From contig CT868208.1 in the NCBI GenBank assembly GCA_000165425.1, positions 496,001-534,934 of the forward strand: a DNA stretch of 38,934 nucleotides. The letters run 5' to 3'. Under the pieces are notes generated by a model. The model was given only the letters and a program-made list of their open reading frames with translations, was not told where the DNA came from and ran no database searches. Positions 1 to 37,517 of the stretch are shown here, piece after piece (position 1 is the stretch's first letter; each line of letters starts with the position of its first letter). This DNA comes from Paramecium tetraurelia. Taxonomy: Eukaryota. The position numbers and the translations under genes were made by a program.

Positions 1-3000
1 TCAAGAAAATATTGCATTGCATATTCTTCAACTTTTAAGGAATGCTGTTCAAATATATAAGTGTCCTTAGCTTTATCAATGACTTACTTATAAACTTCTG
101 ATTTCAAAGACTCTAGATAATAGGTTTTTTAAATTGTTCTACTGCTTGTAGATGAGAATACAAATTGCTTTTTTTACCTAGATAAAATTATCAATTATAA
201 TATACTCGTATTCTAATTTGTTGAATAAATCAATAAATTGAGTGAAATTGTATCTCTGAATGCATGAATACTAAACAATAGTTCCAAATTTCTTATGAAT
301 GTCTGATTCAAATTGAATTTCCTCTAACTTTTTACTAGCCTCATAGTACTCTAACGCATATTAAATAGATTGCTTCCTTAGAGTTTATTTTCTAAATCCT
401 CTAAAAAACAAACCTTTGTATCTAAATATTTATACTTTTCTACAGTTTAACCAAGATCTCTTCTCAATAAAGTTCTGATATTTATAAACTAATTCATTGT
501 ATTCTTTGACTTCTTCAGATGTGAGAGTATTACCAAATTATTGAAATTGTTTTCTAAATTTGAGCATAGCCTAATTTCTATAGTATTCGTGTTGTTTGTC
601 AAAACTCTTTTTCAAAATTAAATACCTCTTGTAATCCAAATTATGAAATAAATGGGATTTCCTTTAAATATAACTTTGAGCAATAAATAATCTATAATCG
701 GTCCAAAACATATTATAATTAGAGAGAAGATTCAATCTAAAGAAAAATCTCCAAATTTTGGTTCTGACTTGAATGAGTTACTTTTCCCCCTTTGAAGAAG
801 ATTGAATTCTAAAAGCCCAATGAATGGATCTATTTGAGTAGTATTTGAACAGGAAATCATAATTCAATTTCTAGACTTATTTTATTTTTTTCATGCTATC
901 CTTTATTTTCGATTTCATATTTCTTCGAGTGTATGTCTCTTGTTTTACAAACTCATTGACAGGGACAATTATTTAGTTACTTGATTAGTCAAACGAATCT
1001 GCCTATATTTTCTTTTGAGTATTTTAATTGGTCGTAAGAAATTGCTGCTGCTATTACGACTTATTCTTAAGATTTAATTGATTCATCTTGAAATTAAACA
1101 TTTCTTCTTCATATACTAATCTCTTAGAAATTTATTTACTATTCTTAGTGTAATAGTCAGCAATTTCATCTTCAGAACTAATCGTTTCGAAACGTTCATA
1201 TTTACGATAGATAGATGATCCAAACACTTTAAAAAGTGGACATCTTTACAATTTGTATTTGTTATCTTGCTGGGACAATCTGTTTAATTTTGATTTGCTT
1301 TAAATATTGCTTTTAAATATATATTGGCTTCTTTTCACAATTTGATCCAATATGATAGGAGAATTACCGAATATGGAATTAGTAAGGTATTTAATAAAAA
1401 AGTTATAAAACAACAGTGCTAAAAATAGAATGATGACTTGATCTTTCATTGTTTCGTAATAATACATGCAAATCAACCCTGTATTACTTAGGAGTGTCAT
1501 ATAATTAATCAACTAAAAAAAGTCATCCCAAATCCCTAAAGAACCATCTCCTTTTGGCCAAGGTCTTTGAGAAATGTAGAGTAGTCGTAATTTAGATATC
1601 TACACTTGTAAGATAGTCCAAATCCAAAATAAGGTTACGCTAAATGGAAATAAACAACCGAATATATTTATTAAAGTTAATTACAAAAAAAAGTCCATGT
1701 GCTCATCTATGTTTCCATATTTTTCAACACTTTTTTAAAAAGGAATTCTTTGTTCTTAAATTTCAATAAAATCACACAAGCTTTGCTGGTTGTTTGGGTA
1801 TAACTTTTAAGGGTTCTTCACCATATCGTTTTGGAATGTCATTAGGAATTTAATCACTTACATCAAAAACATCAACATCATCGTAGTCCCAAAATAATAC
1901 TCAACATTATGTCTACAATTTTCTTCCTTGCAATACAACTGCAAAGGGGAATTCAGAAAACTAACCATCAACAATGGGACAACCTGAGAGGAACAATGTA
2001 ATGTGTATTTTTTTATGATATAACTAGTTTCATATTGATAAGAAGTCTAGAAATTCTCGAAATCTGTTAAAATAGTAGCAATTTGTTCATAAAACGAACT
2101 GATTAATAATTAAATGACATAATTGAGTGAAGCTGTCACTATGATCTCAAAATATTAAAAGTAATTTCCTAAATCTATGAATTCTGACTTTAGATACAAA
2201 TTAAAGAAGTATAATCCAATTATTCTTCCAATATCAGATCCAATCAGAAATATTAAGATGAAAATAGATATAACCAATCTCTGAATGAATTTCGAGTGTA
2301 TAACTCCAATTGAATTCAATTCATCACTCTCAATTGACCTTACATTTTATCCTTTAAATGAACTACGTATAATGCTCTCTTTAACATTTCTATTTTATCC
2401 AAACTTGAGATTAAAAGTTAACTACTATTAATGCCAGCAGTCTGTTTAAAAGGAATTCCAATGGACTATTAAAATGGAAAAAACCGATACGGTTGCTGTG
2501 TATACTTCATTATTGTAGTTCTATGATATGTACATTAACACACTAAATAACAGTCCTAAGGCTGCCATAGGAGTTGAAAATTTAATGAAGTAAGAAGTAA
2601 ATTCAAAGTACAATCCTATCTTCTCCCCAAAATAGGAACAAATGTTATCAGTTGGTATAATCCATGGATGTAAATAATCCAGATTCCATTCACTTGCAAT
2701 ATCAAAAGGCTTTTTCTTATAGTTATGCTTTTCTTCACTTACTGCTTTTTAGATACTTTTACATTGGCCAAACAACTCATATTGATCATGCAAACTGAAT
2801 AGTTGTTTGACAAACTATAAATTGATTAAAGTATTTAAATTAATTGTTTGAGTAATAACGGAAGATGCTAATTTCAATCTTTCATTATTTGGAAACAATG
2901 TAATTTAGTTTTATTCATTTTTAATGTATCTGCACCATTTAAGTTTGTATTTGGCAATGTTCTTTAAGGATTCCCCAATGAAATTAATTTTAAAAGGCAC

Positions 3001-4739
3001 ATATAATTCAAAAGGTTTTTAATGGTACCTATCCCAAATTGTTTTTATATAGTGTTGAGAACAATTGGCAACCTTAAGAGCCTCTTGAAATATGTTCAAA
3101 TAATTATGAGCTAATTATTGCTATTTGATCAATTTGATGGATTTTAATTTTGGTAGATCAGCTATCAAAGGAACATTGTACGAGAGATCTATTAATTCTC
3201 TTACTTTTTCATACATTTCACTTATTTTGTCAGAGGCGTCGTCGCTTAAATCAGTAAATTAATTAATCTATTCTTTTCTATTAGTTCTAATTCCATATAG
3301 TTGTTCAACTGTCTTTTATCCATCTACACATAGAGCAATGTCACTATCTATTTGATGCTTACTTCTTTCAATCTATATATGCTTATTTAAATGAACCAAA
3401 TATTTATAATATGCTGTCCACTCCTCATCCGTTGGCCCATCCTAATCTCCATATAAATCAGACTTTCCATATTCAAATAACTCAATATTTAAACCACTTT
3501 GGCCTACTTCTCTAGCCAATCTTTTGAAATTAATCTATCTTATTTAATCAATGATCAGGGGTCGTAAGTATTCTAAATAAGGAGAATTATCATATTCATC
3601 TGGTCTCCAGAGTCTGCCATTCAATCTTAAAGGACGATACTATTTGTCCACAGGTTCTAAAGACAGAAGATCTGTGAAACAAAAGCTTAATTTCTTTGGC
3701 AATGCGAAATTTTCAGCAGCAATTTCGAGCATCTTTTCTGTCATATACAAACAAAGATAGATGGTTTATCCATCTTTGGATATAAACGATTTCACATTGA
3801 ATCCTTTTCTAGATAGTTAAATTATCAAAGCATTTCTGATGAGAGTCAAAATATCTTGGGTTTCATTTCTTGTTCGAAACCAAGATTAACCTTATCTTTT
3901 GAGGTATTCTCCTTAACTGTAGGCCTTCTTTTAAACGTATTCCAATTTATGCATGTCAATTTATAAACAATCAGTGATATTATGTAAACTGCCTGCATAA
4001 TGTGAGATGTTATCTTTTAAATAATTTCTAAACTTTTTCACTAATTTACTCATTGGATCTTCTTTTTTATAAACAGGGAAATCGGATGTTCTATTCAACT
4101 AATTGACGATGTTCTCCACAAGAATTAGGGAATTGGGACTTCTATCTGGGGATTTTTGAAATAATTATTACGAAGTTCCAAATTATACCAAAGTATTTCT
4201 TTGTTATTGTTGATTTGAGTCTATATTTCTTGTTTTTAATTCAAATAACGAATATATTTTGCGATCAGCGAGGTGAGTGAAGGCATTTTCCAAAGCCTTT
4301 ATAAATAGTTTATCATAAATTGACTTATCATCTATCTAAAGAGACTTTACAATTTATTCAAAAATTTCAAATTGCTTTATACTGTAATCGTATTCATCTG
4401 GAATCAAATCTGGGTTGGGAAGACTTTGAAATTCATAAATAAAATTACATTATACCTTATGACTGCTTCTGGTAAATCAAATTCCATTATTGTATTTTCA
4501 TCTATTTATGGAATATTGTTGAGAGCATAAAATCGTTTTTCATCTGCACGCCCAATATCTTGACCCAGAAGCATTTTCAAGTAGATTTCGTATATCTTGA
4601 CATAATCTTCTATTTAATCTAGTTTTTTTTATCTTCTAGTTTTTTGTGTTATTTCTGGAATCAGTTATTGAAAACACTAAATTGAGAGTTTGGAGGTAAA
4701 AGCATGCATTTTGCTTTATCTACTTTATCTTTAATTCAT
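1..4739 (-). CDS. Anoctamin/TMEM16 family membrane protein with long N- and C-terminal extensions; 3' end lies beyond window start
   Basis: Ciliate-code translation from ATG 4739 gives anoctamin motifs NICSYFGEKIGLYFEF (~2590-2650), ILTDFENFQTSYQYE (~2030-2075), GNIDEHMDFFLQ, ISQRP and SLGIWDDF, with hydrophobic TM segments. Introns are needed at ~4424-4455 and ~178-205. The frame stays open to position 1. Confidence 0.88.
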
Positions 4740-17376: not shown

Positions 17377-19616
17377 TCATGTCATCTTTCTTATCTTTAT
17401 GGCATTCGAGAAAATATTTTTAGATAGATCCTTTTTATATGTTGCAGATGAGATTCTAAGCTTGGAACTAAATGATTTTACTAGGGTTGGAGTCTAAAAA
17501 ACTTCACTAGCCTTTTTTCTCATAGACATCTATTTGGTATATTCTTCATTGACGTATGGCACTTGCTCGGGGTCAAGTTTACCAGATACTATATCAGAAA
17601 TAACTCTAATTTATTCCTCTTATTCAACGATTTGCTAATCGAAATCTTTAAATTTCTAAAATGTTATTTTATAAATACTGGTTTTTCCACAGGTTTATAA
17701 TTGATGGAGGTAACAAAATTGAATTTAAGTTATTTTTTGCCATCCTTAATTTCATAAGCATCATCTTTTGAAACTTTTTCTATAATATCTACTATCTCTC
17801 CTTCCTCATTTACATACTAATTATATTTACAAGTAATGTAACCTTTAGCAATCATCTAAAGTACCTATAATCGTTTTTGCATTTTCTTTAATTATTTGAG
17901 AAAGTATTCTTTTCTTAATTGATTATCTGTTTTGCTTCTGGGTTCAAGTTCAAAAAAATTCCCAATATTTTCTTATTATTTTTTCATGAGAAGTTCATAT
18001 TCACTGTTTAATTACTTGGAGTAATTTGAAGATGCTTCCATAAAGTTGAGATTTTGATATTTAACATGAGAAGCATAACTTTTGATTGCATTGTAGAATT
18101 ATTCTTTGAGTTCTTGATTTCTTCTACTCGAATTACCTCCCCAGTTGATAACTTCATCATTTACAACATTTTGGGTTTTGACAAAATTATCCAATTGAAC
18201 TTCTGGTTATTCATTGGTTGTTAGTTCAAAATTAAAATGGGAAGATATTTTAGTGCTTTTAACATTTGGATTTATTATTTTCTACAAGACTCTTCTTTTG
18301 GGTTATTACTCACTATTTTTAGGATAATTATCTGCTAACTTTGTTTATGCATTTGTATGTGTTTTCTCAAAGGATAAATTTTTATTTGAATGTTACGCTT
18401 TGCATGTTTGATGTTAAAAGAATTGATTAAATTATTAGGTATTTTGGATAATTAAAGAATTAGGCAGAATTTTAGATTTTTATTACTTAATCCCTTTATT
18501 TGATTTTAATTGATTGCTAATGTTTTTGGGATTAAATTCAGTCTCCTATAATTGAAAATTCAATTTGCAAGTACTAATCTCTTCTAAATAGGCTAAGTGA
18601 GCTTTTAGTTCTTCTGTATTAATTGGTTATTTAGACAATTCAACAAATCTCTTCAATCTGAAAATCCATTTCTCTCCAATAAGGAGAAATAATATGTTCC
18701 TTGACTCTCTTTGCCAAACTTTCTTCTCGAATTCTACATTTGAAATTCTAAATAACATTGCTGAATCACAAAGACACTTAATATTAAAATACCTTTTATC
18801 ATAATTCAAAAAGCTCTCTTCTCCAAAGACTTCTCCCTCAGCTAATCTAGTCAATTAATGTTCAGTTTAGTTCTCATCTCTTTTTGTGAGTGAAAATTCT
18901 CCCTTAAAAACAAAGTATGCCCAATCGCATTCCTAATCGCCTTCTTAATAGATTGTTTCATTTTTCTAAGGTTTGATAACTTCTAATTTGTATGCGAAAT
19001 ATTTAATTTCATTATCGGAGAATTGTTAAATGTAGGTGAGCTGTTTCAGAAATGCTATTTTTTCATTATTTTCACTCGATTTGATATTTGAGTTTAACTC
19101 GATGATAAATTTAAAATCTAGACAGGCTACATCTGTTTGTCTTAGTGTAACTGCAGTAGATTTCTAAACATCCTGTAAGCCAAATTCATTGAATGATTAT
19201 CCAAATGTCATTTCAGAGACTTGAGAATATTGTTGAATATCCGAAATATCTGTGAAAGTCTTTGGTTTGGTGGAGTCAAGTTCTTAGGTTACTAATACTC
19301 TACCACTTAGGATGATGTAGGTGGTTCTGTTAACTGATATATTCTAATTAGGCCCAAATGTTTTTAAATAAAGGTGTTTGCATAGTTGTTTCATAAAATC
19401 TGCATTGTATTTGGCTTTTATTTTCTCAAAATATTGAAAACAAGACATATATTCTATTATCTGTGAGAAATCTTATTCGGTTCTAGATAAATAATCTTTT
19501 TATAAAACTTATTTTATTTTTGAGATATCTTGAGGTTGATTGCCAATCTTTGATAAAATATTAGAGGCTGAGATAATATGAACAGCATGTTAAAGTAATT
19601 GAGATTTGCTTTTCAT
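17377..19616 (-). CDS. Tandem cyclic-nucleotide-binding (cNMP) domain protein with long low-complexity C-terminus
   Basis: N-terminal RTEQDFSQIIEYMSCFQYF. Domain A: YIILSGRV..GQSFNEFGL. Domain B: IYQEGD..AYFVFKGEF..LAEGEVFGEESFLNYDKRYFNIKC. One 23-nt intron at ~17656-17678. TGA at 17377-17379. Confidence 0.85.
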
Positions 19617-20223
19617 TTAGATAATTATTTATTTTAATGACGATATTATATATTAGAACCAGGAATCGCACCGTCAGGATGTTTATAAAAATTAGAACTA
19701 TATTCAGGAATATGATAAGCCTTATCTCCTAAAAAATGCGTTCTAATTCCATTTCGATTGTCGTTAACTCGCACTTTTCTTTGCATTTCATCTTCCAATA
19801 TGTAACCTTAATAGGTTTCCTTATTGGCATGCTACAATACTATTGGAAATAAATGACCTCGAAGGTTTTGATGCCATAATCTACATCTTCTAGATGGCCA
19901 TCCTTTTCCTAGCGCAAATGTTTCTTTTCAAAGTAAATTTATCTGTCCATGGGTTCAAATTGCTTTCGAAAATTGGGTTCTGAATAAAACTTCTCCAATC
20001 TCGATGACTCTTAATTATTGAGTGACTGTTTCACAGTAGGAGTATTCAAGATCTGGAATTAATTTTATATTAAAGATTTCTAGACTTTCGGTTACACTTA
20101 GCCAAAGAATGTATCACTTTCCCTAGGAGTGATAATTTCTAAGGCTTGTTATTCGAACTTCTTTCTTCCTTTGTCCCTCCATTTTTAAGGTTTCAATCCG
20201 TCCCAATCCATATAGGAATACAT
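19613..20223 (-). CDS. SPATS1/SASRP1-like protein (probable ciliary/centrosomal)
   Basis: RNGIRTHFLGDKAYHIPEYSSNFYKHPDGAIPGSN matches my recollection of the SPATS1 RNGI..GD.Y..PE.S..F.K motif. One 26-nt intron. TGA at 19613-19615 overlaps the next gene's ATG. Confidence 0.7.
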
Positions 20224-20239: not shown

Positions 20240-21021
20240 ATGTAAATTGAATCAGACAATTAAGTTACAAATCAGAGTTACTCTTTTTTTAGGTAAGAGA
20301 ATACGATTTTGGATGATAAAAAGTTTATGGAAATATTGTAGAAATGGGGTCTATAACATAGCATCAAAGTGAGCACATTTTTATTTGATATCAAATTTGA
20401 TCATCTAAATCCAAATCAATTTTTGTTGGATTTATTCAATTCTAAGGACGTAAGAGGTTCATTGCATTATGTTTCATTTAAATAGAATGTGTTGCTATCA
20501 TAGATTAAATTTTAACCTTTGACATGCAAATCCATAAAATTGGACTTATTCGATAAGTTAACAGAAGATAAAATTGTTGTCAAGGGTCACATCAAGTAGT
20601 GTTTCGAGGAATAATTTGAAAATATTCAGATAGCTGATGAATTACGTAAAGCACTTGTTTTGGAAGATTCGGAACAATATTGTGTATTCAATGAAGCTGA
20701 CAGATAAGAATTATTATTCAAATTATTCCAAATTCTAGTTCTGGGGGGATAGCTTTGTTAATATGAAGATGAAATACAAGCCTATTTAGATTGGACAAAG
20801 TATTTATACAAAAACACAGTCAAGTATCATGTGAATTAATATAAAGTGCTCGAAAATATGCAGATAAGGATGAGATTTACATAGATTCTTATGCTTATGA
20901 CATTAGGAAATTAGAGAACTCTTACAGTTCAGATCATCCATAAAATGTAATGTATGTCGTTGTGAACCCATCATTAAGAATTGTTAATATCATAGAAAAC
21001 TAATGGTTAAAAGTATGGTGA
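20240..21021 (+). CDS. CFAP300: CFAP300/C11orf70 dynein-arm assembly factor (DUF4498)
   Basis: Motifs [59 protein letters not shown] and HPQNVMYVVVNP. One 23-nt intron at ~20824-20846. TGA at 21019-21021. Confidence 0.92.
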
Positions 21022-24464: not shown

Positions 24465-25313
24465 TCAAAGTTTGTAATGAACAGCTTAGTTATAATTTAA
24501 GGGAATAGGATTTCTTTGCTTTTGAAACATTCCTCCATAGTCTTTCGATAGTTCTGATTTCTTGACGTATCTTTACAGATAAGATATATCAGATAAGGGT
24601 AAAATCAAGTAGGAGTATGAACCTTAACTCAACATGCCTATAACTTCAGAAGAGATTTTTTCTAAACTTATGTTTATTAAAATGAGTTTGCTTACATTTA
24701 AAAAATAATGTTTGTATGTTAAGTTGGCAATAAAATTGAGAAAAATAGGGTTGGCTGATTCTTACTATAAGTCATAAACAATAATTATATGATTATTTAA
24801 CTTGTTATTCGTTGCCATTTCATAAAACAAATACTCCAGGAAATATAAGAAATATTATTAGACATACTCCGTGTTTATTTTATCAAGTTTTACACTCAAG
24901 ACTAATCCTTTCTTAAAGTCAATGCCGATTATTTAAATTGCTTGTCTTAAAGGTTCATACTCAATTGGTCTTATACTTTATCGGAATTCTTAATTTTCTC
25001 TAATTAGCAAATTGATTTTCTCAAAATTGTAGTTTTGACTAACTAATAGATATCTACACAGGCTCAAATCCAAACAATGGTTATGCTTAGATAATTGAAT
25101 AATTTGTGCAGTGAGTGAAGCAGAAAAAGGATCAAAATTGTTATCATACATTTTAGAATAGTATTGAACTACTTTGATTGAGATTGGATGGAGAAAAGAA
25201 TTTCTTGTTTTTTCTGAAGCATGCTATCTCTAAAATTAAGAGGGTCTGTCTTTGTTGTCTTAAATTTTGATTGAATTTTCTCTTGACAAACAGGTGTTTT
25301 CAAGGTTTCCCAT
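24465..25313 (-). CDS. Sec14/CRAL-TRIO lipid-binding domain protein (282 aa, intronless)
   Basis: Motifs LCRYLLVSQNYNFEK, IIIVYDL, KHYFLNVSKLILIN and YVKKSELSKDYGG. 849-nt open frame. The N-terminal MGN is a possible myristoylation site. Confidence 0.8.
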
Positions 25314-25419
25314 TAATATATATATTAATTAAACTAAAGTATAAAGTTTAGAATATTTTGCTTGGTCTTTTTATTTCGGTGTTATTTGTTGGGCATTTAT
25401 TATAATTTTTTTATTCAAT

Positions 25420-28400
25420 ATGTCTAATAAGGGAGAATCTTTAAAATTTGGATAGGTGATCTCAATAAGTCCATTAGCCAATTAATCCCTTTTTGTCTAT
25501 AGCGACGGATTAGTTAAAACGGATGCCAAGGTAATTGTAGAGAAATAAGATTAGTTAGTCGAAATATCGCCTGACATAATGGCTGCAGGTTCACTCTATT
25601 ACTACAGTTTGTATAGAATTTACCCTGATTTCATTACAACCAAATTGCAAATGGCTATAAATTTTAAAGAAGAAACCATGCAGGATGATAATTCAAAAAA
25701 AATGTAGAAACTCAAAGATCTCCAAACCAAAGTACAAATCTAAACTTAACAATAGATTATAGCAGATTATAAATCGAACATAGATGTTTCAACCAAATAT
25801 AAGGATAAGCCATTATCCTTCAATAATTTAATTTAGTTTATGCATGTAGCAACAAATCGATTTTTGTCTTTATCTAGTAAGGAAGCAAAGGACGAAAAGG
25901 AAAACTTTCGCTTGGAACTAGTAGAATATCCTTCCTCAAAAACGGTATTTCAATTATAACCTGCCTTCGTACATTAAAAGGAATCGAATTCAGAAGTTTA
26001 TGCAGGCGATAGTGTATATATCATGTGTGATCACATTTATTTGGGAATCAAGCCGAAACTAAGAGCCACACTTAAGTACGGTGTTATGGATACATATGAG
26101 TATCTACAGGATAGATCTATCTACGCAGTTCCCAATTTAAAATTGCTCAAGAAAATGACAGACCAACTAGCACAATAATAGGATGTCTTAGAAATCACTC
26201 CAACTATTCAGAAATTCTAGAAAGTCGCCAGTTTAGCCAAAGGGTAAAGCATTCGAAGACAAACAACATGTAAATTTGAGTGCTAAATTATTTAGTAAAA
26301 TAAGAAGAAGAAGTAAAGCCTGTCGGGTAAACGAGTGAAGTCAATATTTCATTGGAACATCAGAGTCCTTGGGTATTAACGGTGTTCTGTAATTAAAATG
26401 ACAATGAACAAATTATAAGTTTTAATGATGTTATATGGATTCATCATATTGAAGAAAATTCACTTTTAACTTTGGGTAGAAATCAGGATAATGAACTAAT
26501 AATAACATTTTAGAAATAGTCAAATGAATAATAGAGCGAATTTAATGGCGACTCCAATGGAATGTTTTAAATTGAAAATGAAGATCTAAACAAAGGAGGA
26601 TTAGTTGAATGGGGTTAGAGTCTGAGGTTGAGACATTTCATTCTTGGCAAATATTTAGCAATAAATTATGAACCAATAAAATCGGGTTAATTGTTGTTAT
26701 ACTTATCTGATCAACCCACACCCAATACTCTATTCTAATTTTTAGCAGTACCAACTATGGGATCCAATACAGTAAGCTAGAAATATGTCACTAAAGATGC
26801 CTTTATGAAGATGAAAGCAGTGGGTAAATCCTCATAATGGGTACATCTAGAATAAAAAAAAATTGTAATTCAATATCTATATATGTTATTAGTTATAAGC
26901 AAATAGTAAATACAAGGACACTGTTGTTGAGGAAGATAAATCAGTAATTGTTATTAGATTAACTGATAATACTGAGGATGATGACGTATTGAAATTGTAC
27001 AAGGCAAATTATAGTGATGTTCTAGAAACAAACTTTCTAATTACAGGTTTCCCAGTTCTTAGAAGAGGATTAACTAAACTCAAATCCAATAAAGATATGA
27101 CTAAGGAGGCACAGAAATAACAAATGATCAAAACATATAAGAAATTAACTACTACTATTGAAAAGTTAGAAAAGTTTTGTAAAAATTCTTTAATCAACAC
27201 TTAACTTGATATTAAAAACACCAAAGTGGCGATATTATAGAGATAGAAAATACTAAGAGAATAATACTTCATTGATCTCCTAATAGAAATTATGAAATAA
27301 ATTACAAACGAAGATGAATTAAGATAATATAGTGAGTATTAGTTAGCCCAGCATAAGGCAGCTTTAGAAAAGCAGACGAAGACTACACTTGCTGTTTCTT
27401 AGAGATCTCATATTGGTTCAGATATCAGTCCCTTAAGAGCAAAAGATTCACAAATAAATTCCTTAAGTATTGTATGACTCTATTATTTTCAGATTAAATT
27501 GCAGTTGGGAGATCGGCAGCTAGTTAGTTAGTTTCATCCCATCAAATATAATCTTAGCAAAGAACTTAAGCAAGAAAAAAGAAAATGGAAATGGCATTTT
27601 TGTCTGAAAAAATGAGTGTGCTAAAAGTTATATATCGATTGCTTAGAAGCATTTGTTAGGACAATCCAGAGAACTAATTTTATATTTACAAATTGTTTCC
27701 AAACTTTCTCTATTAAATCAAGTATTTCAAAGAAGCAACTGATTGTATCATAACAGTTCTTAGTGGTAATGAACAAATTTTAATCAATTTGTGTGATCAT
27801 ATTAAATTAAATGAGAAATTAAAAGCTCGACAATAAGTGGATAGTGATGAGTCCTAATTATCAGATGAAATGGATATTCAATTTAATTCATCTGCTGATG
27901 AAAAGAAAAATATATTATTATATTATAAAAATTTGACAGAAGATAGTTAAGGATAAAGGAATATTCAATATTTATAATTTTTCAGATGCATATGCAGATT
28001 AAATGACTAAAGTATATCTGTAAATTAAGAAATGATATTCAAATTTATCAAACAAAATGAAAATTTTAAGGGTTCTTTGTTTATGCCAATCATCATGTAA
28101 TTATCTTTAATATTCTTAGTGAATCCACCAAAATGAAAATATGTGTAGATTAAACACAAATTGCATACATTACCAGTATCAAAGAGTAAATAATTATATA
28201 TTATCGTAGTCCTTTAATTTAAAATTATTTAATAGAATAATTATTTTTATATGCAGATTTGGCATATTAGCGAAACTTTTTGTGGAAATCTTATTTGGAA
28301 CGTATCTTTCCAACCCAATTTGTATTTAATTAAATTTTTGACGAAGACAAAGATTAAAGCAAGTAAAGTTTAGGTAATTCTGATTAAGTATTTGACAAAT

Positions 28401-31400
28401 CAATGTAAATCAATTATAAGTCAGCATTCTGCAACATGGCAATAACAAGTAATAAATCACTAAAATCTAGTATTTGTCGACCATGAGCCCTTCAACAAAG
28501 CAATTGTTCCTAACTTATGTAGATTATATACAGAAACAAAACCAATTTCAAAAAGTGTTTAATCAACTAATAAACTGACCAAATTAGCATCCACATATAC
28601 TCCCCTAGTTGACAAGACCTTTAAATTTTTAAATGATCTTTATGATTAAATAAATCTGGATCTAGATTACAAAAAGGAGTAAGCAAGAACCAAAGGCTAA
28701 TTAATAAACTAAGACCCTGACGATAAAAAGAGGTAAGCAAGAACCAAAGATTAATAAAATGATCAAGACTCCTTTATCAATCCATTGGTACTTGATATTA
28801 CTAAATTAATCTCCATAATGATTAGATTTGACATGCTTAAAATAATGAAAAAAGAAGAATTGTATGTTAATATTGTACCCAAACTCATTTCCCTTTTAGA
28901 ATATGACAAAAATAACATGCTATATTCATATATACTTAAATCAGTCAGAGAATCAAAAATTAAAAAGGCAACTGAAGGAATCAATTTAAATGTGATAGGA
29001 AAAGTAACTGCACAATCTTAATTTACAAAACTGGCTAAAGACTTAGCATCATCTATTCTAGGAATTCCACCAAAATAATAAGGTTCATTAGAGGATGAAT
29101 TTTCAGATTATGATACAACTGTTATTGCCAGAAATCCAATAGTTTCTAGTCTTATCTCCATAATCACTTATATGGACACTCTTGGAGTCTAAGAGACAAA
29201 CTCAAAAAATTAGAGTTAATAATAAATACAAAATAACTTCGAAATTGAAATTTAAAAAGAAGTGTGTGGAATCCTTTTATACTTTTAGGATCAAAGATAA
29301 GATTTTTACGTCTCAAACTTTATTTAGTTTTATAAGAACTTCACAAATAAGTTTCAATAATTTAGTTGGAATAATACATTATTAAAGGATAAGTTTTTAA
29401 AAGACTTAGAGTCTGAATTGGTGCAAGCCTTACCACCATTTTTAAAGACTGGAATTGAAGCCATAGATAAATAAGCATAAACCAGCATAGAGGCCATATA
29501 TAAATCGAATGATATGAATGAACTAATTGGAGTAGGAAATCTACTGGCACAATAAAAGAAATTTTAGATCTAAAATCCATAATTAACTGAGACTATGGAT
29601 CTGGATAAATTGACATGTGGAGAATCATAGGCTGAACTCTAACTATTGCCTACCTTAATTGTAACATTTTTTGTCACAAATGACTTTGGATTGTAAAATG
29701 AACTTATTGAATTAATGAGAAGGTCCTTCTCCCAAGTTTCTGAAATGATGTATCACTTAAACAGAATTGAATTACTATTTGATAAGGTAGAGATTGGTTG
29801 TTATCAATTTCTAGAAGTTTCAATATAAGAATTAAAAGTAATTACTGAATGTTCTGAAGTTTGGTTGGTTGATTTCTTAGCATCTCCACAAGGAGAAGTC
29901 AAAGAAATCCAAAAGATCCTAAAGATATTGGCAGATTTGCAATTATTATTGAAACAAGGCACATCCATTGATCATAAAAGTAGAGTTATTAATGGAACTG
30001 ATTAAATATCAGTATCTAGATAAAAAATATTTAACTTCTTAAATGCCTATGAACCTTTACTGAATTTCATAAGAGATACTCAATAACAATTAGTAAAGGT
30101 TTTGGATGATCCATTTTATTCAATGGAGACTAAGAGCTACGTTATCCAACTATTGAAGGCATTATTTGCTTTACTAACAGATTTTTGTGATAAAAATGAT
30201 GAAAATTAAAAAATTATGCATAAAAATGCAAGTCTATTTATGGATGAATTATAACATGACTATGGATAAATGAATTTGTTAAGTGCAATATATAGAGATA
30301 ATAAATAATTATGTTAAAAAATTGATGAGATTTTATTAAAAAAAATAAAATCATTTATCTATGCATATGGAAGATAAGCAAGATTTCTCCACTTATATAA
30401 AAATATTTAAACCTATAAGAACAACCCAATTATTGAGGTATAAACTAAAGTACTTCAATTGTTTATTCCATAACACATCAGCACAGAGGATTATACAGAT
30501 ATCAACGAATTTTATCTTTATGGTGAATTCAAAGCAATTGATGGTAGAAAAGTACTTGAATTCACATTTGAAAGATCACTAGAAACTAAATTGAGTGATC
30601 AACCATTTCTTTATCATAGTGAAATACTGTAGGTCTTATTAGCCACAATTATTGGTGAGGAGAGCTTTAAAATAAATTCTCCTAAATTAAAAAAATTATT
30701 TAAATTACATTATTTGCTTGAATTATTATTACAGCCAGATGATTTTTTATCGGAAGAAGCAAACATTTTGGAAGGATTGGTTGACGTTAATCTGGGTATG
30801 GTTAATGGTATAAAGCACATAAAGCCACAAATTATTGAAATGGCAAATCTATTATATGTGAATAATAAGGTCACAGACTTATATTTATTCATTAAAGAAT
30901 AACATAAATTTACTGAGTTCTTTGCTTAAGAAAAAGGCAGATTAGTTAAAATATAATCATTACAAGGTGATTTCGATTAATACTTGTAATACTTTTTTGA
31001 TTATGTGATTGTTTTGATGAAATATTATTCAAAAAAAGTCATTACAAAAGATTCAGGTTCAGAATATAGAGAAAGATCAGATTATATGGAATTAAAAGAT
31101 ATCATGAACATCATTTTAGGAATGTGCAATACATTGATTCAGCATAAGTTAAAAGTGAATTAATATAATAATTTAGTAGAGTTTGTTCATTCACTTGATG
31201 AATAGACTCTAACTGATAATGCAGGATAGATATCTTAGTCACTATAATAACAAGAATTTGCTAAACCTTAAGTCGAGGAAGAAAATTAAACAATTTTCAC
31301 TTAAAAAAAAAAGGATTCTCCATTAATTCACAATGATAAGGACGAAAAATTAAAACGGACTAATAATAAAACTGATATTGATTAACTAAATTAGGAAATT

Positions 31401-34400
31401 GTAGATTGGAATACAAAAAAAGCTTGGGAAAAATTCTTAGAAGAATGTTAATCACTTTAATCGACAAAAAAAACACAATCTATTGAAATGAGAATCTTAA
31501 GTCAAACATTTTAAGAAGTGCATAAATTTATACCTGATGCTATGATCAAAGAATTAGGTTTGTAAAACTTTTGCTTTAAGGATTTTCTAAAAAAATTAAT
31601 CCGATTTATCGAGGTAGGTATTATTAATAAAGCGAATAAATCGAATTTAATATATACATTATAACTTTTAGAAGATATTTTAGATTCAAAAGAAGATTTA
31701 GAAAAAATTCAAAATGAGTTTGATTCATGCTAAGCTACAAGAATGTTTTTAAATTTATTAGCTGACTTTTAGGTTTATCCTTTTGATGATGATCTCTTAA
31801 TATAATTATTTAAATTTGCTTTAAAGCTAAGTAAAAATGGTAATCAAAGAATACAAACTACTGTATTTAATTATTTTAGTAATTTTGAAAAATCTGAGAT
31901 GATCTTTTTAAAAATGAATCAAATTATTTATGAAGTAATTAATGAAAATAAAAAAACATAATAAGTATTGATGCAATAAAAAAGCTAAAAAGATAAGGAT
32001 TAACATTAAAAATAACTTTATTTGTCTAGTATTTAAGAGTAATAAAATGAAGATGAATCTACCTCAAAAGAAGCTTAAGATGCTAGAAGAAGTAAAATGA
32101 GTATACTAATCTATTTGCTGAAATACTTTTAATTAATATGTGAAGGTCACAATTTATAAATCTAAAACTATCTTAGATAGCAATACAATAGTAGAAACAA
32201 TTATAATATTGTCTAAGCTATGGTTGAATTATTATGCGCTTTTGAAAATGATTTGTAAAGAGATTCTTTTGAAGTGATTATGAACACATTAGAAACATTG
32301 ACAGAACTTGTCTAAGGTCCTTGTTCACAAAACCAATAGGATATTATTGATTCGTTATTTTTAGATGTTGCATCTAATTATTTAAATATGCATATTGAAT
32401 CAAAGAAAAAAAAAGATTAGGATGGAGTTTAAGAAAAAGAAGAACATTCTATTAGAGAAAGATCAAATTCATTGCAGTCTAAAAGTACTGCAAAAGCAGG
32501 TGCAAAAGTTAAAACAATTTAAATTGATAGATGGATGTTAGAAAGATTAAAATATAAGTGCATGGTTTTAGTAAGTTCTTTGTTAGAGTTAAACTCAGAT
32601 ACGAATGCTATTAAACGAATTCTAAGATCCTTGCCAATTAATGTGCTTAAAAAGAACTTAATTATAATTTACAAAAAGCATTAAAAAATGTACAAAAAAT
32701 TAGGATACAATAAAGAATCATTAGGACATGTAATTATTTATATTAATAGTATAGCTTGAAGAAAATCCTCATGATTCAACAAAACCTCCTGAATATCATG
32801 AATTAATTTTAGAAACTGGATTTTTGATTTACTTTTTAATCAATCATTATGCAAATTTGGATACAAAAGAAATAGATCCAGCAACTAGAGATGAACTTGA
32901 GGAAATAAAAGAAAGTCAAAAAAATTCTGATAAAGAAGATCCTTGGGCTTAGTTATAAAATTCTCTTATTGGTTAATTGGCGAGCTTAGTGTTTTCTTTA
33001 GTTGGAGGAATTTTAGAAATGATAAATGAATGGAGAGAGTATGCTTAATAATAATTAATGAAATAATTTAAAGGTAAAGAAAGTGCAGAAGAGGAAGAAA
33101 AACGAAAGGCAGCAAAGAAATTAGCTGCTCAATAGCTGTTTAATGATAGTATCACTTTTTTTTAAAAAAATTCTGCTACTGTTGAAGTTATTAGGGAATA
33201 GTAAATAGAAAAAATCATTTTCTATAAATTATCTTTTTGTAACTACTTACCTTAAGAAACTAAAACTGAGTTTCATGAAACTGTAGATAGAGATTCTACT
33301 AATTCTAAAGTGAGTGCTCTAGTTGAAAATATGCCAAATTTCATGGATGTTGCTAAACATGAAGAAGAACTTACACAATTTTTTAATTAGAATAAGTTTG
33401 TAGCTTTATTTGCAAAGTATGTTATTTTGTGGAAAGACTTATGCTTTTTATTGACTCTAGTGTTAAACGTATTTATTGTTCTTTCTTACTATGAAGGGGA
33501 TTCTGATGATCCAGATTAAAGATTTTACGATAGATTAAATTCACCAAAATTTTTAAAAATGTTATCTGTTGAGGAGACAATGTCAATTTTTCGATATTGT
33601 GGAATTGGCATGATTGTTTGTTCGTGCTTTGTTGTTTCGTTTTTTATTCTTAAGAAGGGACCATTGTATGTTAAAGAAGCTTGGAATCAAAGTAAGGATT
33701 TAATCAAGGAGGATCAAATTTGGATTATTAGATTCTTTTTAAAGTTGTATATGGTTGGTTTTTGTTTGGTTAAGGTGTTATTGAACATAGATATGATCTA
33801 TTATTTGGCTTATGGTGTTTTGGCTTTCATTGCAACTTTGGTTCACCCGTTCTTTTTTGCTTTTCATTTAAGTGAAGTGGTCTTAAGATATCCCACACTT
33901 AGAAATATTATAAAATCTTTTTGGGAACCCAAAGTGGCTTTAGGTTTGACATTCATTTTGGTATTGTTAATGAATTACTACTTCACTCTGATGGCATACT
34001 TATTGTTTTACGATATATACACAAATGGTATGATAATCATAATATTTAGGAAAATGTGATTCGTTATTAGTGTGTTTCCTTTCGACGTTTGATTATGCAT
34101 TTAAAAATAATGGAGGTATAGGAGGTTGGTTTGATGGAAATTTTCCATAAGATCCAGCAAATTATAGTTATGGCAGATTTTTCTTCGATTAATTGAATAA
34201 TATCCTCATTCAGATGATTAGTATTTAAATATTTTCTGGTATTATTATTGATACATTTGGTGAATTAAGAGAATAGCAATTAGCTAAAGAGGATGATAAA
34301 GAAAATATTTGCTTTATTTGTGGTCTTGACAGAGAAATTTTTGATATGAAATCCGATGATGGATTTAATAAACATATCAAATAAAGTCATTATATGTGGA

Positions 34401-34788: not shown

Positions 34789-37517
34789 TCACTTGACTTT
34801 TTAAAGCTATCTGTATCTAATCTGAAGTTTCATTTTTTCATCTTCAATGGCTAATCTTTAGCCCAACTTTAAAAGGGATTATGAGACCTTCTCAGATCTC
34901 AGTTATTTTTCAGAATTCCTCAATCTACAATGCTCGACCATAGAAGAGTTCTCAAATATCAATTAAGCAGGTTGTTATTCAGACTTTTCTAACAGATGTT
35001 CTTCAGGATGAAGCATCTCCTTTGTAAGACCTATTTATGACTAATTACCCTTTTGAGTTTTGTGCAAATTTAAATTATTTTAGGGAGAGTTTGTGCTTCT
35101 GAAAGAGGAATTATAATCAAATTTATCAGAATGAACCGATTTATGTAGAGATCCTACTAAAGAGGCAGATCTATTTTCATAAATATCTTGTTATTAACTC
35201 ACAACTTGAGATTCTTTAACACCATCTTTCAACTTTTGCTGCGAAGTTTTACTTTAATTTAATTTTCTATCTTAGTAAAATATAAATACGGCTAACTGTA
35301 CTAGCTCTGATTATGCAAGATTTAAGATCCTTTTTAGGTCTTCGAATCTTGACCTGGAACTTTCAATGCTACATTTTGATGAGAAACACTTAAATTTGGA
35401 ACTTCAAATTGAGCATTCCATAATTCTTATTTGGGAATTTTTTCAAACAAATTTAAAATTTTTTCTTTTTCTACTCCTTTTCTGTATACATTTGATAATG
35501 ATGGAAATAAATTTACTAAACTATCAAAAATCTTAAAGATCTACACAGTTGTTAATATTTGATCTGATGAGTTTTGTTGTTGTTCTTGTGTAAAAACCTA
35601 AGCCGAAACCAAAATTTCATCTAGAAAAATAATCTATTTAATTTACTTCTGAAACATTTGATAATAACCTTTTAGTCACTCCACTTTCTCTTTTAATCAT
35701 CCATAACCTAGACAGGAGATAATTTGGCAATTTTCTCGCCTCTCCAGACATCATACAATCTTACTTCTGACTCAGCATCTTATACAACTGCTATTCCTGA
35801 ACTGCTTACGGCTAATGACATTATTCTCCATAATCCTTGCTTTTATTCATCATAGTTTATTTTTGTTCCTTTGCGGAATTAATTTGTTCTTTTGCACAAC
35901 GTAATCCCTTCAATCGTATTATAAATATGGATGCTCCCATCATAAGAACAGCTAACTATTCTCTCATTCTCACAAAATTCTATATGGCTTACAATAGTTT
36001 AATGTTTATCAAGATAAAATCTTTCCTATTAGAAAACCAAATCATATATTAGAATTGACCCTTACTATAATCCTAAGCCTAACAACGAAAAATTTTTAGA
36101 GACGGCTAAACAAGATAGTGGGTATATCAATGGAATTTCAATTAATCGGGTTTCATTTTTTTTATTAATTATTGGTAATTGAAATTTCATTTCTTATTCT
36201 TAAGTAAACTATGCGATAAGATATTATGGTAAATTATTTCTCTTTGGTTAATTAAAGTAATGAAGTTCTAATTTTGTTGTGTTTGACCATCCAACTACTA
36301 TACCAACAACAACTTCAAATTATTTAAACTATGAAATATAACAATGATTACCTTGTCAAAGGCCTTTTATCCGTTTTAAACGTTAACTGTCTCATGTATA
36401 AAAGCAAAATATGGCTTAAATTTTTATATGGGATATTCCTCACTTATATCATAACCATCTTTAATCTGATGCTTAATTATTAGTTGGTTATTATTTTCTT
36501 CTAAACCTGATTCTTCTTTTACTTATTGAATTACTTCCTATTTCTTTTATGGTTAAGCATTAGGTTATTATTTTTTTTTATCTTCTTTCACTTCAACTTC
36601 TTTTGGGAGATTTTATTCTTTAAATGAATTTATGATTTCATTAAATTTTTATTCTTTCTTTAATCCTTAAAATTTAATCTGATAAAATAGCTCAGTAATT
36701 TCAGTTACTGCAACATCAGTTTATGGATTTAATGGGATTTATTGTTTCAACTATTCTTTTGTAGCCTGTTACTTTTAATTTTACAGCGGAGGCAATAGAG
36801 TATTCTAATTCTACTATGATGTTGCCTATGTTGGCTGTTATGATTCCACCTTTAATTCAGGTATTTTATAAATAACCACATTACCATTATATTAAGTTAT
36901 TAATATATATTGCGAATACTTGCTGATTTCTATATCCATAGGAAGCTCACCAATACCAGTTGCATTTTTAGTGACTTATATAAAATGGATTTAGCTGATT
37001 TTGTTCTCTCCTGGTTTATATTTGAATATTTGTACTACTGGATCTAAGTGACTTATTACTCCGATTCTAAAAATGGTGGAAACTGTTACATGCAAATATT
37101 TTTTTATTCATCATTCGCTCCATCTCTAATTCCTAAGCAAACTTTATTTATTCTTTTTGGGCTGACCTCTTTTTTACAAATTTTCGTTTTCTTACTCATG
37201 TCTAATATAAAAATGTTTCCTTGTAAATCTCCTGCTGCAATTTGTAAATTCGAGCTATTTGAGCTTATAGATGTAATATTCGAAATGTCAAAAATACCCT
37301 AAGGAGGCAATGTTCTCAAGGGACCTTCATAATTTGGATCCGACCTGTATTTTTCAATTAAGAACACCTTCGAATATACTTCCAAAAGAATATCCTTTTA
37401 GATGATTTTATTAATGAATCTTGAAGCTAAATGTTATCATTACCTAAAGGGCTCAGGTAATTTATCAACAAAATTGTTTGGATTGCAAAAATCCCAATCA
37501 TTCAACTAATCGTTCAT
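34789..37517 (-). CDS. WD40-repeat protein, WDR93 (CFAP297)-like
   Basis: N-terminal DWDF..FVDKLPEPFRFINKII resembles the WDR93 DQLPQPYRMINK motif. WD blades include LGLQQGSILIYD and RIVSCSYDGSIHIYN. The first intron (24 nt) carries an in-frame TGA. TGA at 34789-34791. Confidence 0.78.

What the first reader, a model, noticed from the sequence alone, without database searches (positions are those of the whole stretch)
19590..19660. Second ATGA overlap: SPATS1-like stop overlaps the cNMP-binding gene start
Seen: the minus strand reads ...AAT AAA TAA TTA TCT AAA TGA AAA GCA. TGA 19615-19613 overlaps ATG 19616-19614. The cNMP frame has no upstream ATG before an in-frame TGA ~45 nt upstream, and its next ATG lies after the RTEQD..I helix that precedes the cNMP domain. 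The only plausible-size GT..AG nearby is 33 nt and cannot change frame, so splicing does not fuse the genes. The last ~25 coding nt of the upstream gene look like a typical AT-rich pre-ATG leader. Inference: two such junctions within 18 kb suggest a recurrent architecture, not a one-off. A less likely alternative is a +2 frameshift at AAA-TGA, analogous to the stop-codon frameshifting known in Euplotes, which would give a SPATS1-cNMP fusion.
Basis: partly seen in the sequence, partly recalled or inferred. Interest (0 to 1): 0.72.

Follow-up and report, generated by a model that had tools for sequence, protein, structure and literature searches.

The report
Four-base overlap of two Paramecium genes
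In Paramecium tetraurelia the stop codon of a small gene shares three bases with what is very probably the true start codon of the next gene, a cyclic-nucleotide-binding protein whose public gene models are cut short at the front.

Summary
The window is Paramecium tetraurelia macronuclear DNA. On the minus strand ATG 19616-19614 and TGA 19615-19613 overlap exactly as described. The TGA is the real stop of a 194-aa protein: P. tetraurelia and four sibling species all have 194 aa ending KQLSK. The ATG is very probably the real start of the tandem cNMP-binding gene. Residues 2-56, all upstream of every annotated start, match the N-termini of a P. pentaurelia paralogue and an unnamed ciliate ORF; both begin MK at the same aligned position. 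The public models (starts at residues 24, 57, 75) remove confidently modelled helices of the first cNMP domain. RNA contigs of two runs reach 128-161 nt upstream of residue 57, but none reaches the ATG or bridges the junction, and two shallow raw-read runs leave 19432-19639 uncovered. Best reading: two separate, overlapping transcription units in a genome already known for overlapping genes, with truncated annotation. A frameshift fusion is unlikely, and "recurrent architecture" was not shown. This is a new member of a known kind, of moderate interest.

The parts
19613..19616 (-). ATGA: start codon ATG (19616-19614) of the cNMP-binding gene overlapping stop codon TGA (19615-19613) of the upstream 194-aa gene
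   Evidence: sequence; stop position conserved; start position supported by homology
19858..20223 (-). Upstream gene (GSPATT00011349001, SASRP1/SPATS1-like, sub-threshold), exon 1, 122 codons from ATG 20223
   Evidence: P0011 = 194 aa, P. tetraurelia annotation matches this model; names
19832..19857 (-). 26-nt intron of the upstream gene (GTC...TAG)
   Evidence: table 4: 26 letters left out at 19832 in the RNA contigs of X3 and X4; (sequence)
19613..19831 (-). Upstream gene exon 2, 72 codons plus TGA; holds the conserved GDKAYHIPEYS..FYKHPDG block and the tail ..QNKQLSK
17679..19616 (-). cNMP-binding gene (GSPATT00011348001), exon 1 as re-read here: 646 codons from ATG 19616. The public model P0001 starts at residue 75.
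17656..17678 (-). 23-nt intron of the cNMP-binding gene
   Evidence: derived from P0001 against the window
17377..17655 (-). cNMP-binding gene exon 2 (92 codons) with stop TGA 17379-17377. The whole re-read protein is 738 aa.
19548..19613 (-). Codons 2-23 of the cNMP-binding gene (predicted N-terminal helix), coding by homology but absent from all public models
   Evidence: local score 39 and 40; 2 of 5000 and 0 of 5000 shuffles reach it; other two frames score 12-18; helix 4-23, pLDDT 55-60
19545..19547 (-). ATT (Ile24), the position where the P. sonneborni model has its annotated start Met
   Evidence: no other letters in the RNA contigs over this place
19446..19448 (-). ATG of residue 57, the annotated start in P. 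octaurelia, P. pentaurelia and P. primaurelia
19392..19394 (-). ATG of residue 75, the annotated start of the P. tetraurelia record P0001
19586..19588 (-). Out-of-frame ATG, the first ATG met by any transcript that starts between 19613 and 19589. It opens a 65-codon frame that ends at TGA 19393-19391.
19674..19676 (-). In-frame TGA that closes the cNMP frame upstream of the ATG (19 codons, none of them ATG)
19610..19640 (-). Smallest stretch covered by no RNA record in any of the 4 runs laid. X3 contigs end at 19641 and 19609. About 10% G+C by my count.
   Evidence: tables 2 and 8

Best explanation
These are two independent protein-coding genes on the minus strand of P. tetraurelia macronuclear DNA, and their coding sequences overlap by four bases. 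The upstream 194-aa gene stops at TGA 19615-19613. The downstream gene encodes a 738-aa protein with two cyclic-nucleotide-binding (CNB) domains and starts at ATG 19616-19614. Shown: both codons are the real ends of the two reading frames. Inferred: each gene has its own mRNA. The downstream mRNA would start inside the last roughly ten codons of the upstream gene, because Paramecium leaders average about 22 nt. ATG 19616 would then be its first AUG and would be used by ordinary scanning. The upstream mRNA would be polyadenylated some 45 nt into the downstream coding sequence, so the two transcripts would overlap by a few tens of bases. TGA is the only stop codon in Paramecium, so any last codon ending in A creates such an ATG. 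This is therefore the easiest overlap to evolve when a spacer shrinks to nothing. The public gene models start at residues 24, 57 or 75. I read them as truncations, possibly because the annotation pipeline (TrUC is run with -no_overlap) cannot place a start inside the preceding gene.
For: The organism and genes are identified.

Stop codon. P. tetraurelia P0011 and the P. octaurelia, P. primaurelia, P. pentaurelia and P. sonneborni proteins are all 194 aa and end ..KQLSK.

Start codon, closest relatives. In a phmmer search of 1.84 billion representatives, P0014 is the only full-length relative outside the orthologue cluster. It is a P. pentaurelia paralogue of 744 aa on another contig (36% identity), and it aligns query 4-621 to its own residues 5-627. 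The unnamed ORF P0019 aligns query 4-95 to its 5-95. Both begin MK.

Start codon, N-terminal segment alone. BLASTP of residues 1-56 gives E 2e-9 to P0019 (3-56 against 4-56) and E 3e-7 to P0014 (2-56 against 3-56). Residues 1-23 alone score 39 and 40, reached by 2 of 5000 and 0 of 5000 shuffles. The other two frames of the same DNA score 12-18.

Start codon, wider family. 25 of the 150 listed hits have their best stretch starting at query residue 56 or earlier. A family-wide motif lies upstream of residue 57. P. sonneborni is identical at 31 of the 33 residues 24-56. No other in-frame ATG lies between the upstream TGA 19676-19674 and residue 57.

Structure. The AlphaFold model has mean pLDDT 84, with helices 30-39, 47-57, 61-69 and 72-80 at about 90. 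Starts at residue 57 or 75 would delete them. The fold is a tandem CNB-A/B as in PKA-R and PKG (Foldseek E about 1e-17).

RNA. Spliced contigs of X3 and X4 (the 26-nt intron is left out, so they are RNA) carry the cNMP transcript unbroken up to 19609 and 19576. That is 161 and 128 nt upstream of residue 57, against a mean 5' UTR of 21.7 nt (PMC5485702, passages). Such a long leader would contain the out-of-frame ATG 19588. Contig depths differ between the two genes (47.6 against 14.2 in X3; 41.6 against 25.1 in X4).

Literature. [quoted passage not shown] Intergenic regions are 'sometimes simply absent' (PMC12716044, passage). The sibling species were annotated with TrUC plus EuGene (PMC8354472, passage).
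Against: No transcript end was mapped. The two cNMP RNA contigs stop at 19609 and 19576, short of the ATG. The upstream-gene contigs stop at 19641 and 19664, short of their own stop codon.

In the two stranded raw-read runs (58-nt reads; 17 and 19 reads laid), no read lies on 19432-19639, although the flanks stand at depth 1-4. In X20 about ten reads would be expected over 19432-19613 at the neighbouring depth. In those samples most cNMP transcripts may therefore start near 19430-19450, which would fit the old model starting at residue 75.

All five public models start downstream. I could not see the DNA of any sibling species, so conservation of the overlap itself is inferred only. The codon-usage score for codons 1-23 is undecided (+0.8 bits; coding mean 3.0, sd 2.8). 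Base -3 before the ATG is T.
Confidence: 0.68

Rival explanations
1. The ATG at 19616 is not used in P. tetraurelia. The cNMP mRNA starts further downstream and the protein begins at Met57 (19448) or Met75 (19394), as in the public models. The spacer would then be an ordinary 164-218 nt, and the ATGA would be a chance in-frame ATG in an open leader.
For: Public models start at residue 57 (three species) or 75 (P. tetraurelia). Raw reads of X19 and X20 give no coverage of 19432-19639 beside depth 1-4 on 19276-19405. ATGA with long frames on both sides is common in this TGA-only code (34 in the window). A frame stays open by chance for tens of codons in DNA this AT-rich.
Against: Residues 2-56 are significantly homologous to the N-termini of a paralogue and of another organism's ORF, including residues 2-23 alone. 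Residues 24-56 are 31 of 33 identical to P. sonneborni. The starts at 57 or 75 cut through helices modelled at pLDDT about 90. RNA contigs of two other studies extend 128-161 nt above residue 57. The raw-read runs are very shallow (17 and 19 reads laid).
Confidence: 0.17
2. Both genes are read from one bicistronic mRNA. A ribosome that terminates at UGA re-initiates at the overlapping AUG, as in translational coupling in bacterial operons or termination-reinitiation in some RNA viruses.
For: The AUGA arrangement is the classical coupling signal. Both genes lie on one strand, and both are transcribed from the minus strand in the stranded runs. At most 57 nt separate the ATG from the frame's upstream TGA, all of it inside the upstream gene. 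The neighbours have cilia-type matches (CFAP300; an axonemal tandem-CNB chain among the fold matches).
Against: Contig depths differ 1.7- to 3.4-fold between the two genes, though depth is a poor measure. Paramecium mRNAs are described as one gene per transcription unit with very short leaders (PMC5485702, passages). My one search for ciliate plus termination-reinitiation gave 4 papers, of which 3 were listed, and none has a title about ciliate genes. The paralogue P0014 has the same N-terminus; whether it has an upstream partner is unknown.
Confidence: 0.07
3. A programmed frameshift at AAA-UGA (Euplotes-like) or an unseen splice fuses the 194-aa protein to the cNMP protein.
For: AAA followed by a stop is the Euplotes-type shift site (recalled, not tested here). 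The cNMP frame is open for 19 codons upstream of the ATG.
Against: The relatives' proteins begin with Met at the aligned position, so the ATG behaves as a start and not as an internal codon. P0014 has no SASRP1 match. The upstream protein is 194 aa in five species. No fused form appeared in the 'longer' search (weak evidence) or among the 150 hits listed. The only nearby GT..AG is 33 nt and keeps the frame. The X3 contig is gap-free over 19250-19609.
Confidence: 0.02
4. Translation starts at the near-cognate ATT 19547 (Ile24), the place of the P. sonneborni Met, after loss of an ancestral ATG.
For: P. sonneborni has Met where P. tetraurelia has Ile24, one base apart. The X4 contig's 5' end at 19576 lies 29 nt upstream of it.
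Against: Residues 2-23, upstream of it, are homologous to the relatives' N-termini. The out-of-frame ATG 19588 would lie in the leader of the X3 transcript. The P. sonneborni Met may simply be the first ATG that an annotator could use without overlapping the previous gene.
Confidence: 0.03

Closest known systems
Overlapping or abutting transcription units of the compact Paramecium macronuclear genome (Arnaiz et al. 2017, PMC5485702; Aury et al. 2006 as cited in PMC12716044)
   Same: Same organism. The genes are tightly packed, with 5' UTRs of about 22 nt and 3' UTRs of about 45 nt. The papers state that genes and UTRs sometimes overlap and that intergenic regions can be absent (passages seen).
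   Different: The passages I read speak of overlapping UTRs or genes in general. I saw no description of a stop codon sharing bases with the next gene's start codon, nor of this gene pair. A search for the six gene identifiers gave 0 papers. One search found 51 papers, of which 12 were listed, and none has a title on this.
ATGA stop/start overlaps in bacterial and archaeal operons (translational coupling)
   Same: The same four-base arrangement on one strand (established knowledge).
   Different: In those cases one polycistronic mRNA is the rule. Here separate capped mRNAs are the likelier reading and no bridging RNA was seen. The mechanism was not tested.
Multi-gene and overlapping transcripts in other compact eukaryotic genomes (microsporidia, nucleomorphs)
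   Same: Loss of spacers forces promoters and termination signals into neighbouring genes (recalled; nucleomorph papers appear only as titles).
   Different: Those are reduced parasite or endosymbiont genomes.
Tandem CNB-A/CNB-B regulatory modules of PKA-R and PKG
   Same: Residues 1-340 fold as two CNB domains. The best Foldseek matches are PKA regulatory subunits and PKG (E 5e-18 to 1e-13). Pfam cNMP_binding scores 54.1 bits against a cut-off of 27.5.
   Different: Pfam reports only cNMP_binding: no kinase domain and no docking domain. There is a long Q/K-rich C-terminal half. An extra conserved N-terminal helix (residues 4-23) is shared only with close relatives.

Membership tests
Same-strand coding-sequence overlap (stop/start ATGA) between two real genes | The TGA is the functional stop of the upstream gene | tested here: met
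   Five species' proteins are all 194 aa and end KQLSK. The intron of this gene is confirmed in RNA contigs.
Same-strand coding-sequence overlap (stop/start ATGA) between two real genes | The ATG is the functional start of the downstream gene | tested here: met
   Tested by homology only. Residues 2-56 match the N-termini of P0014 and P0019, which start MK at the same aligned position. It is the only in-frame ATG upstream of residue 57. Not confirmed by a mapped 5' end or a peptide.
Same-strand coding-sequence overlap (stop/start ATGA) between two real genes | The downstream mRNA contains the ATG | tested here: inconclusive
   RNA contigs reach 19609 (X3) and 19576 (X4) but not 19616. Raw reads of X19 and X20 are absent from 19432-19639 at depth 1-4.
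Bicistronic termination-reinitiation | A single RNA molecule spans both coding sequences | tested here: inconclusive
   0 of 4 runs gave a record that bridges 19610-19640. The tool itself warns that a hole proves nothing.
Euplotes-type stop-codon frameshift fusion | The fused product is conserved, with no independent start in relatives | tested here: not met
   Relatives start with Met at the junction. No fused forms were found (and the 150 rows listed).
Pfam PF00027 cNMP_binding | Score above the curated cut-off, with a CNB fold | tested here: met
   54.1 bits against 27.5. Tandem CNB fold matches to PKA-R and PKG.
Pfam PF15160 SASRP1 (SPATS1) | Score above the curated cut-off of 27 bits | tested here: not met
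   22.3 bits for exon 2 alone (E 1.2e-4) and 20.3 bits for the whole protein (E 4.9e-4). The ESM Atlas gave no named neighbour at 0.9 or above. The label 'SPATS1-like' is a lead only.

The most novel reading that the evidence does not exclude
The two genes are expressed from one mRNA, and the ribosome that ends the 194-aa protein at UGA restarts on the overlapping AUG. This would be operon-like translational coupling in a ciliate nucleus, made easy by the UGA-only code and possibly widespread wherever Paramecium spacers have vanished.
Probability: 0.06. Interest if true: 0.8.

Novelty: new member of a known kind. Interest (0 to 1): 0.4.

Why it matters
If the reading is right, the public models of this protein lack a large N-terminal piece in every species examined: 74 residues in P. 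tetraurelia, 56 in three sibling species and 23 in P. sonneborni. The missing piece includes part of the first cyclic-nucleotide-binding domain. The likely cause is that the annotators cannot place a start codon inside the previous gene, so the same blind spot may truncate other Paramecium genes.

It also gives a clean natural test case. Here RNA polymerase II would have to start one gene and finish another within a few tens of bases that are all coding. That bears on the open question of where promoters and terminators lie in a genome with almost no spacers. It is not a new mechanism unless the bicistronic reading proves true.

Tried and rejected
- Own genome: none is held, so no genome-wide count of ATGA junctions and no search for the P. 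tetraurelia copy of paralogue P0014.
- Earlier findings of this scan: nothing relevant.
- Sequencing runs: no RNA holder is listed as on record. I laid two runs guessed to be RNA (X3, X4; shown to be spliced) and two raw RNA runs (X19, X20). No record bridges the junction, no joints, no loose ends and no clustered starts or ends were reported. The hole is not evidence of absence.
- Sibling-species DNA: the metagenome scan with the upstream-protein alignment gave 177 pattern matches and 0 relatives. The genome-contig scan gave one locus, L001, a Bacteroidetes MAG contig at about 40% G+C with long PKD-type repeat genes. The match is an off-frame coincidence, so I rejected it. The overlap in other species could therefore not be read directly.
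- Fused forms: the 'longer' search with P0011 gave 138 candidates and none significant. This is weak evidence.
- Codon-usage log-odds, trained on four of the window's genes, cannot decide a 23-codon stretch.
- ESM Atlas for the 194-aa protein: no named neighbour at 0.9 or above, and the Atlas model has pLDDT 0.35.
- Papers: the gene identifiers occur in 0 papers. The supplements of PMC3091696 held as text do not contain them, and two PDF supplements could not be read. Co-expression during reciliation was therefore not checked.
- Splice fusion: the 33-nt GT..AG (19641-19609) keeps the frame. A 16-nt GT..AG after ATG 19588 does not restore the cNMP frame and is absent from the RNA contigs.
Full report
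**What the window is.** It has 25-31% G+C. Long frames appear only when TAA and TAG are read as glutamine. The downstream protein is 100% identical to a Paramecium tetraurelia macronuclear record (P0001, GSPATT00011348001), and the upstream one to GSPATT00011349001 (P0011). No whole genome is held for it.

**The observation.** On the minus strand the sequence reads ...TCT AAA TGA AAA GCA.... ATG is at 19616-19614 and TGA at 19615-19613. The next in-frame ATG is 19448-19446, residue 57. The 33-nt GT..AG is 19641-19609.

The pattern alone means little in a code with one stop codon. 34 ATGA sites in the window have at least 60 open codons ending at the TGA and at least 100 starting at the ATG. 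The question is therefore whether both codons are real gene ends.

**The upstream gene.** It starts at ATG 20223. Exon 1 runs to 19858, a 26-nt intron covers 19857-19832, and exon 2 runs to the TGA. The intron is left out of the contigs of runs X3 and X4, which shows those contigs are RNA.

The 194-aa product equals the P. tetraurelia record P0011. The P. octaurelia, primaurelia, pentaurelia and sonneborni proteins are also 194 aa and end ..H-Q-(N/Y/F)-K-Q-L-S-K. The stop is therefore old and fixed, not a recent stop-loss.

The SASRP1/SPATS1 label is below Pfam's cut-off (20.3-22.3 bits against 27), and the ESM Atlas added nothing.

**The downstream gene.** The public models disagree about the start:
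- residue 75 in P. tetraurelia;
- residue 57 in P. octaurelia, pentaurelia and primaurelia;
- a Met at the position of Ile24 (ATT 19547-19545) in P. sonneborni.

P. sonneborni is identical to the window at 31 of the 33 residues 24-56, so that stretch is coding.

A phmmer search of 1.84 billion representatives with the frame read from ATG 19616 gave 480 hits at E up to 0.001. Outside the orthologue cluster, the only full-length relative is P0014, a 744-aa P. pentaurelia paralogue on another contig (36% identity). It aligns query 4-621 to its own 5-627. An unnamed 95-aa ORF, P0019, aligns query 4-95 to its 5-95. Both begin MK.

- Residues 1-56 alone give BLASTP E 2e-9 (P0019) and 3e-7 (P0014), aligned from residues 2-3.
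- Residues 1-23 alone score 39 and 40, reached by 2 of 5000 and 0 of 5000 shuffles. The other two frames of the same DNA score 12-18.
- 25 of the 150 listed hits have their best stretch beginning at query residue 56 or earlier.
- An alignment of 26 sequences shows a family-wide motif upstream of residue 57.

An AlphaFold model of residues 1-340 has mean pLDDT 84. It places helices 30-39, 47-57, 61-69 and 72-80 at about 90, and a weaker helix at 4-23 (pLDDT 55-60). Its fold is the tandem CNB-A/B of PKA regulatory subunits and PKG. Starts at residue 57 or 75 would cut through this domain.

ATG 19616 is the only in-frame ATG upstream of residue 57, and homology reaches the codon right after it. 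It is therefore very probably the start. Using P0001 to place the 23-nt intron (17678-17656) and the stop (17379-17377), the re-read protein has 738 aa, close to the paralogue's 744.

**RNA evidence (one lay call, four runs).** The table gives the outermost positions reached by RNA records.

| Run | cNMP transcript reaches up to | Upstream-gene transcript reaches down to | Depth of cNMP and upstream-gene contigs |
|---|---|---|---|
| X3 (contigs) | 19609, no gaps or other letters | 19641 | 14.2 and 47.6 |
| X4 (contigs) | 19576, no gaps or other letters | 19664 | 25.1 and 41.6 |

The cNMP contigs reach 161 and 128 nt upstream of residue 57, whereas Paramecium 5' UTRs average 21.7 nt (PMC5485702, passages). 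A leader that long would also contain the out-of-frame ATG 19588. This fits a start site upstream of 19616.

Neither contig reaches the ATG, and no record bridges 19610-19640. This stretch has about 10% G+C by my count, and even the upstream gene's own last 26-50 coding bases are missing from its contigs.

The two stranded raw-read runs confirm minus-strand transcription of both genes. They are shallow (17 and 19 reads of 58 nt laid) and leave 19432-19639 empty beside depth 1-4. In X20 roughly ten reads would be expected there. This counts against my reading, or it points to a second, downstream start site in those samples. I cannot tell which.

**How it most likely works.** I read this as two mRNAs. 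The downstream one starts within the last codons of the upstream gene, so that ATG 19616 is its first AUG. The upstream one is polyadenylated some 45 nt later (mean 3' UTR 44.6 nt, same paper), inside the downstream coding sequence.

This is inferred from the organism's known UTR sizes and from published statements that its genes and UTRs sometimes overlap and that spacers can be absent (PMC12716044, passage). Because TGA is the only stop, any last codon ending in A offers an ATG. That makes ATGA the cheapest overlap to evolve.

The sibling genomes were annotated with TrUC and EuGene (PMC8354472, passage), and TrUC is run with -no_overlap. The pipeline did pick the MK start for paralogue P0014. 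That suggests, but does not show, that in the orthologues the MK start is hidden by the same overlap.

**Rivals.**
- A downstream start (residue 57 or 75) is favoured by the raw reads and the public models. It is contradicted by homology, the fold and the longer contigs.
- A bicistronic mRNA with reinitiation is not excluded, but nothing supports it.
- A frameshift or splice fusion is unlikely. Relatives start with Met at the junction, the upstream protein is 194 aa in all five species, no fused form was found, and the only nearby GT..AG keeps the frame.
- Initiation at ATT 19547 is contradicted by the homology of residues 2-23.

**Novelty.** Overlapping genes are acknowledged for Paramecium. 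I found no description of this pair: 0 papers hold its identifiers. My two searches turned up no description of stop/start overlaps in ciliate nuclear genes. I file it as a new member of a known kind, with a practical consequence for annotation.

"Recurrent architecture" was not shown. The other candidate I glanced at (36190-36187) joins two frames, the downstream one with WD40/beta-propeller matches. It may be one gene with an unseen intron.

Noticed in passing
window 19392-19616 (-): Public models of this cNMP-binding protein start at three different places in five Paramecium species (residue 24, 57 or 75 of the frame). All are downstream of the start supported by homology.
   Followed up: yes
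window 19391-19588 (-): An out-of-frame ATG at 19588 opens a 65-codon frame that ends at TGA 19393-19391. That TGA again overlaps an ATG (19394, residue 75, the old annotated start). A 4-codon frame from ATG 19405 ends at the same TGA. Probably chance, but it would matter if a downstream start site is used.
   Followed up: partly
window about 20330-20870 (+): A CFAP300 gene (Pfam 206.9 bits) lies head-to-head with the 194-aa gene, with about 100 nt between the two starts. Together with an axonemal tandem-CNB chain among the fold matches (9fqr_Xk), the three neighbours may all be cilium-related.
   Followed up: no
window 36187-36190 (-): Another ATGA between a 306-codon frame and a 275-codon frame with WD40/beta-propeller matches. 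It could equally be two exons of one gene. Not resolved.
   Followed up: partly
window 17817-17864 (-): A 48-nt in-frame segment bounded by GTA...TAG is coding in the P. tetraurelia, P. octaurelia and P. sonneborni models but absent from the P. pentaurelia and P. primaurelia proteins. It may be an optional or mis-annotated intron.
   Followed up: no
window 19548-19607 (-), residues 4-23: The N-terminal extension is a predicted helix. Its hydrophobic spacing (L/F, A, V/I, I, L) is kept in P0014 and P0019, so it looks amphipathic and could be a docking helix. This rests on the pattern only.
   Followed up: no
window 76-4476 (-) and 25168-34059 (+): A large anoctamin-type channel gene (233 bits) and a very long multi-exon gene with an RIH_assoc domain (IP3/ryanodine-receptor type) flank the region.
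   Followed up: no
L001 3872-4273: The only genome contigs 'relative' of the 194-aa protein is an off-frame coincidence inside a Bacteroidetes PKD-repeat gene.
   Followed up: yes
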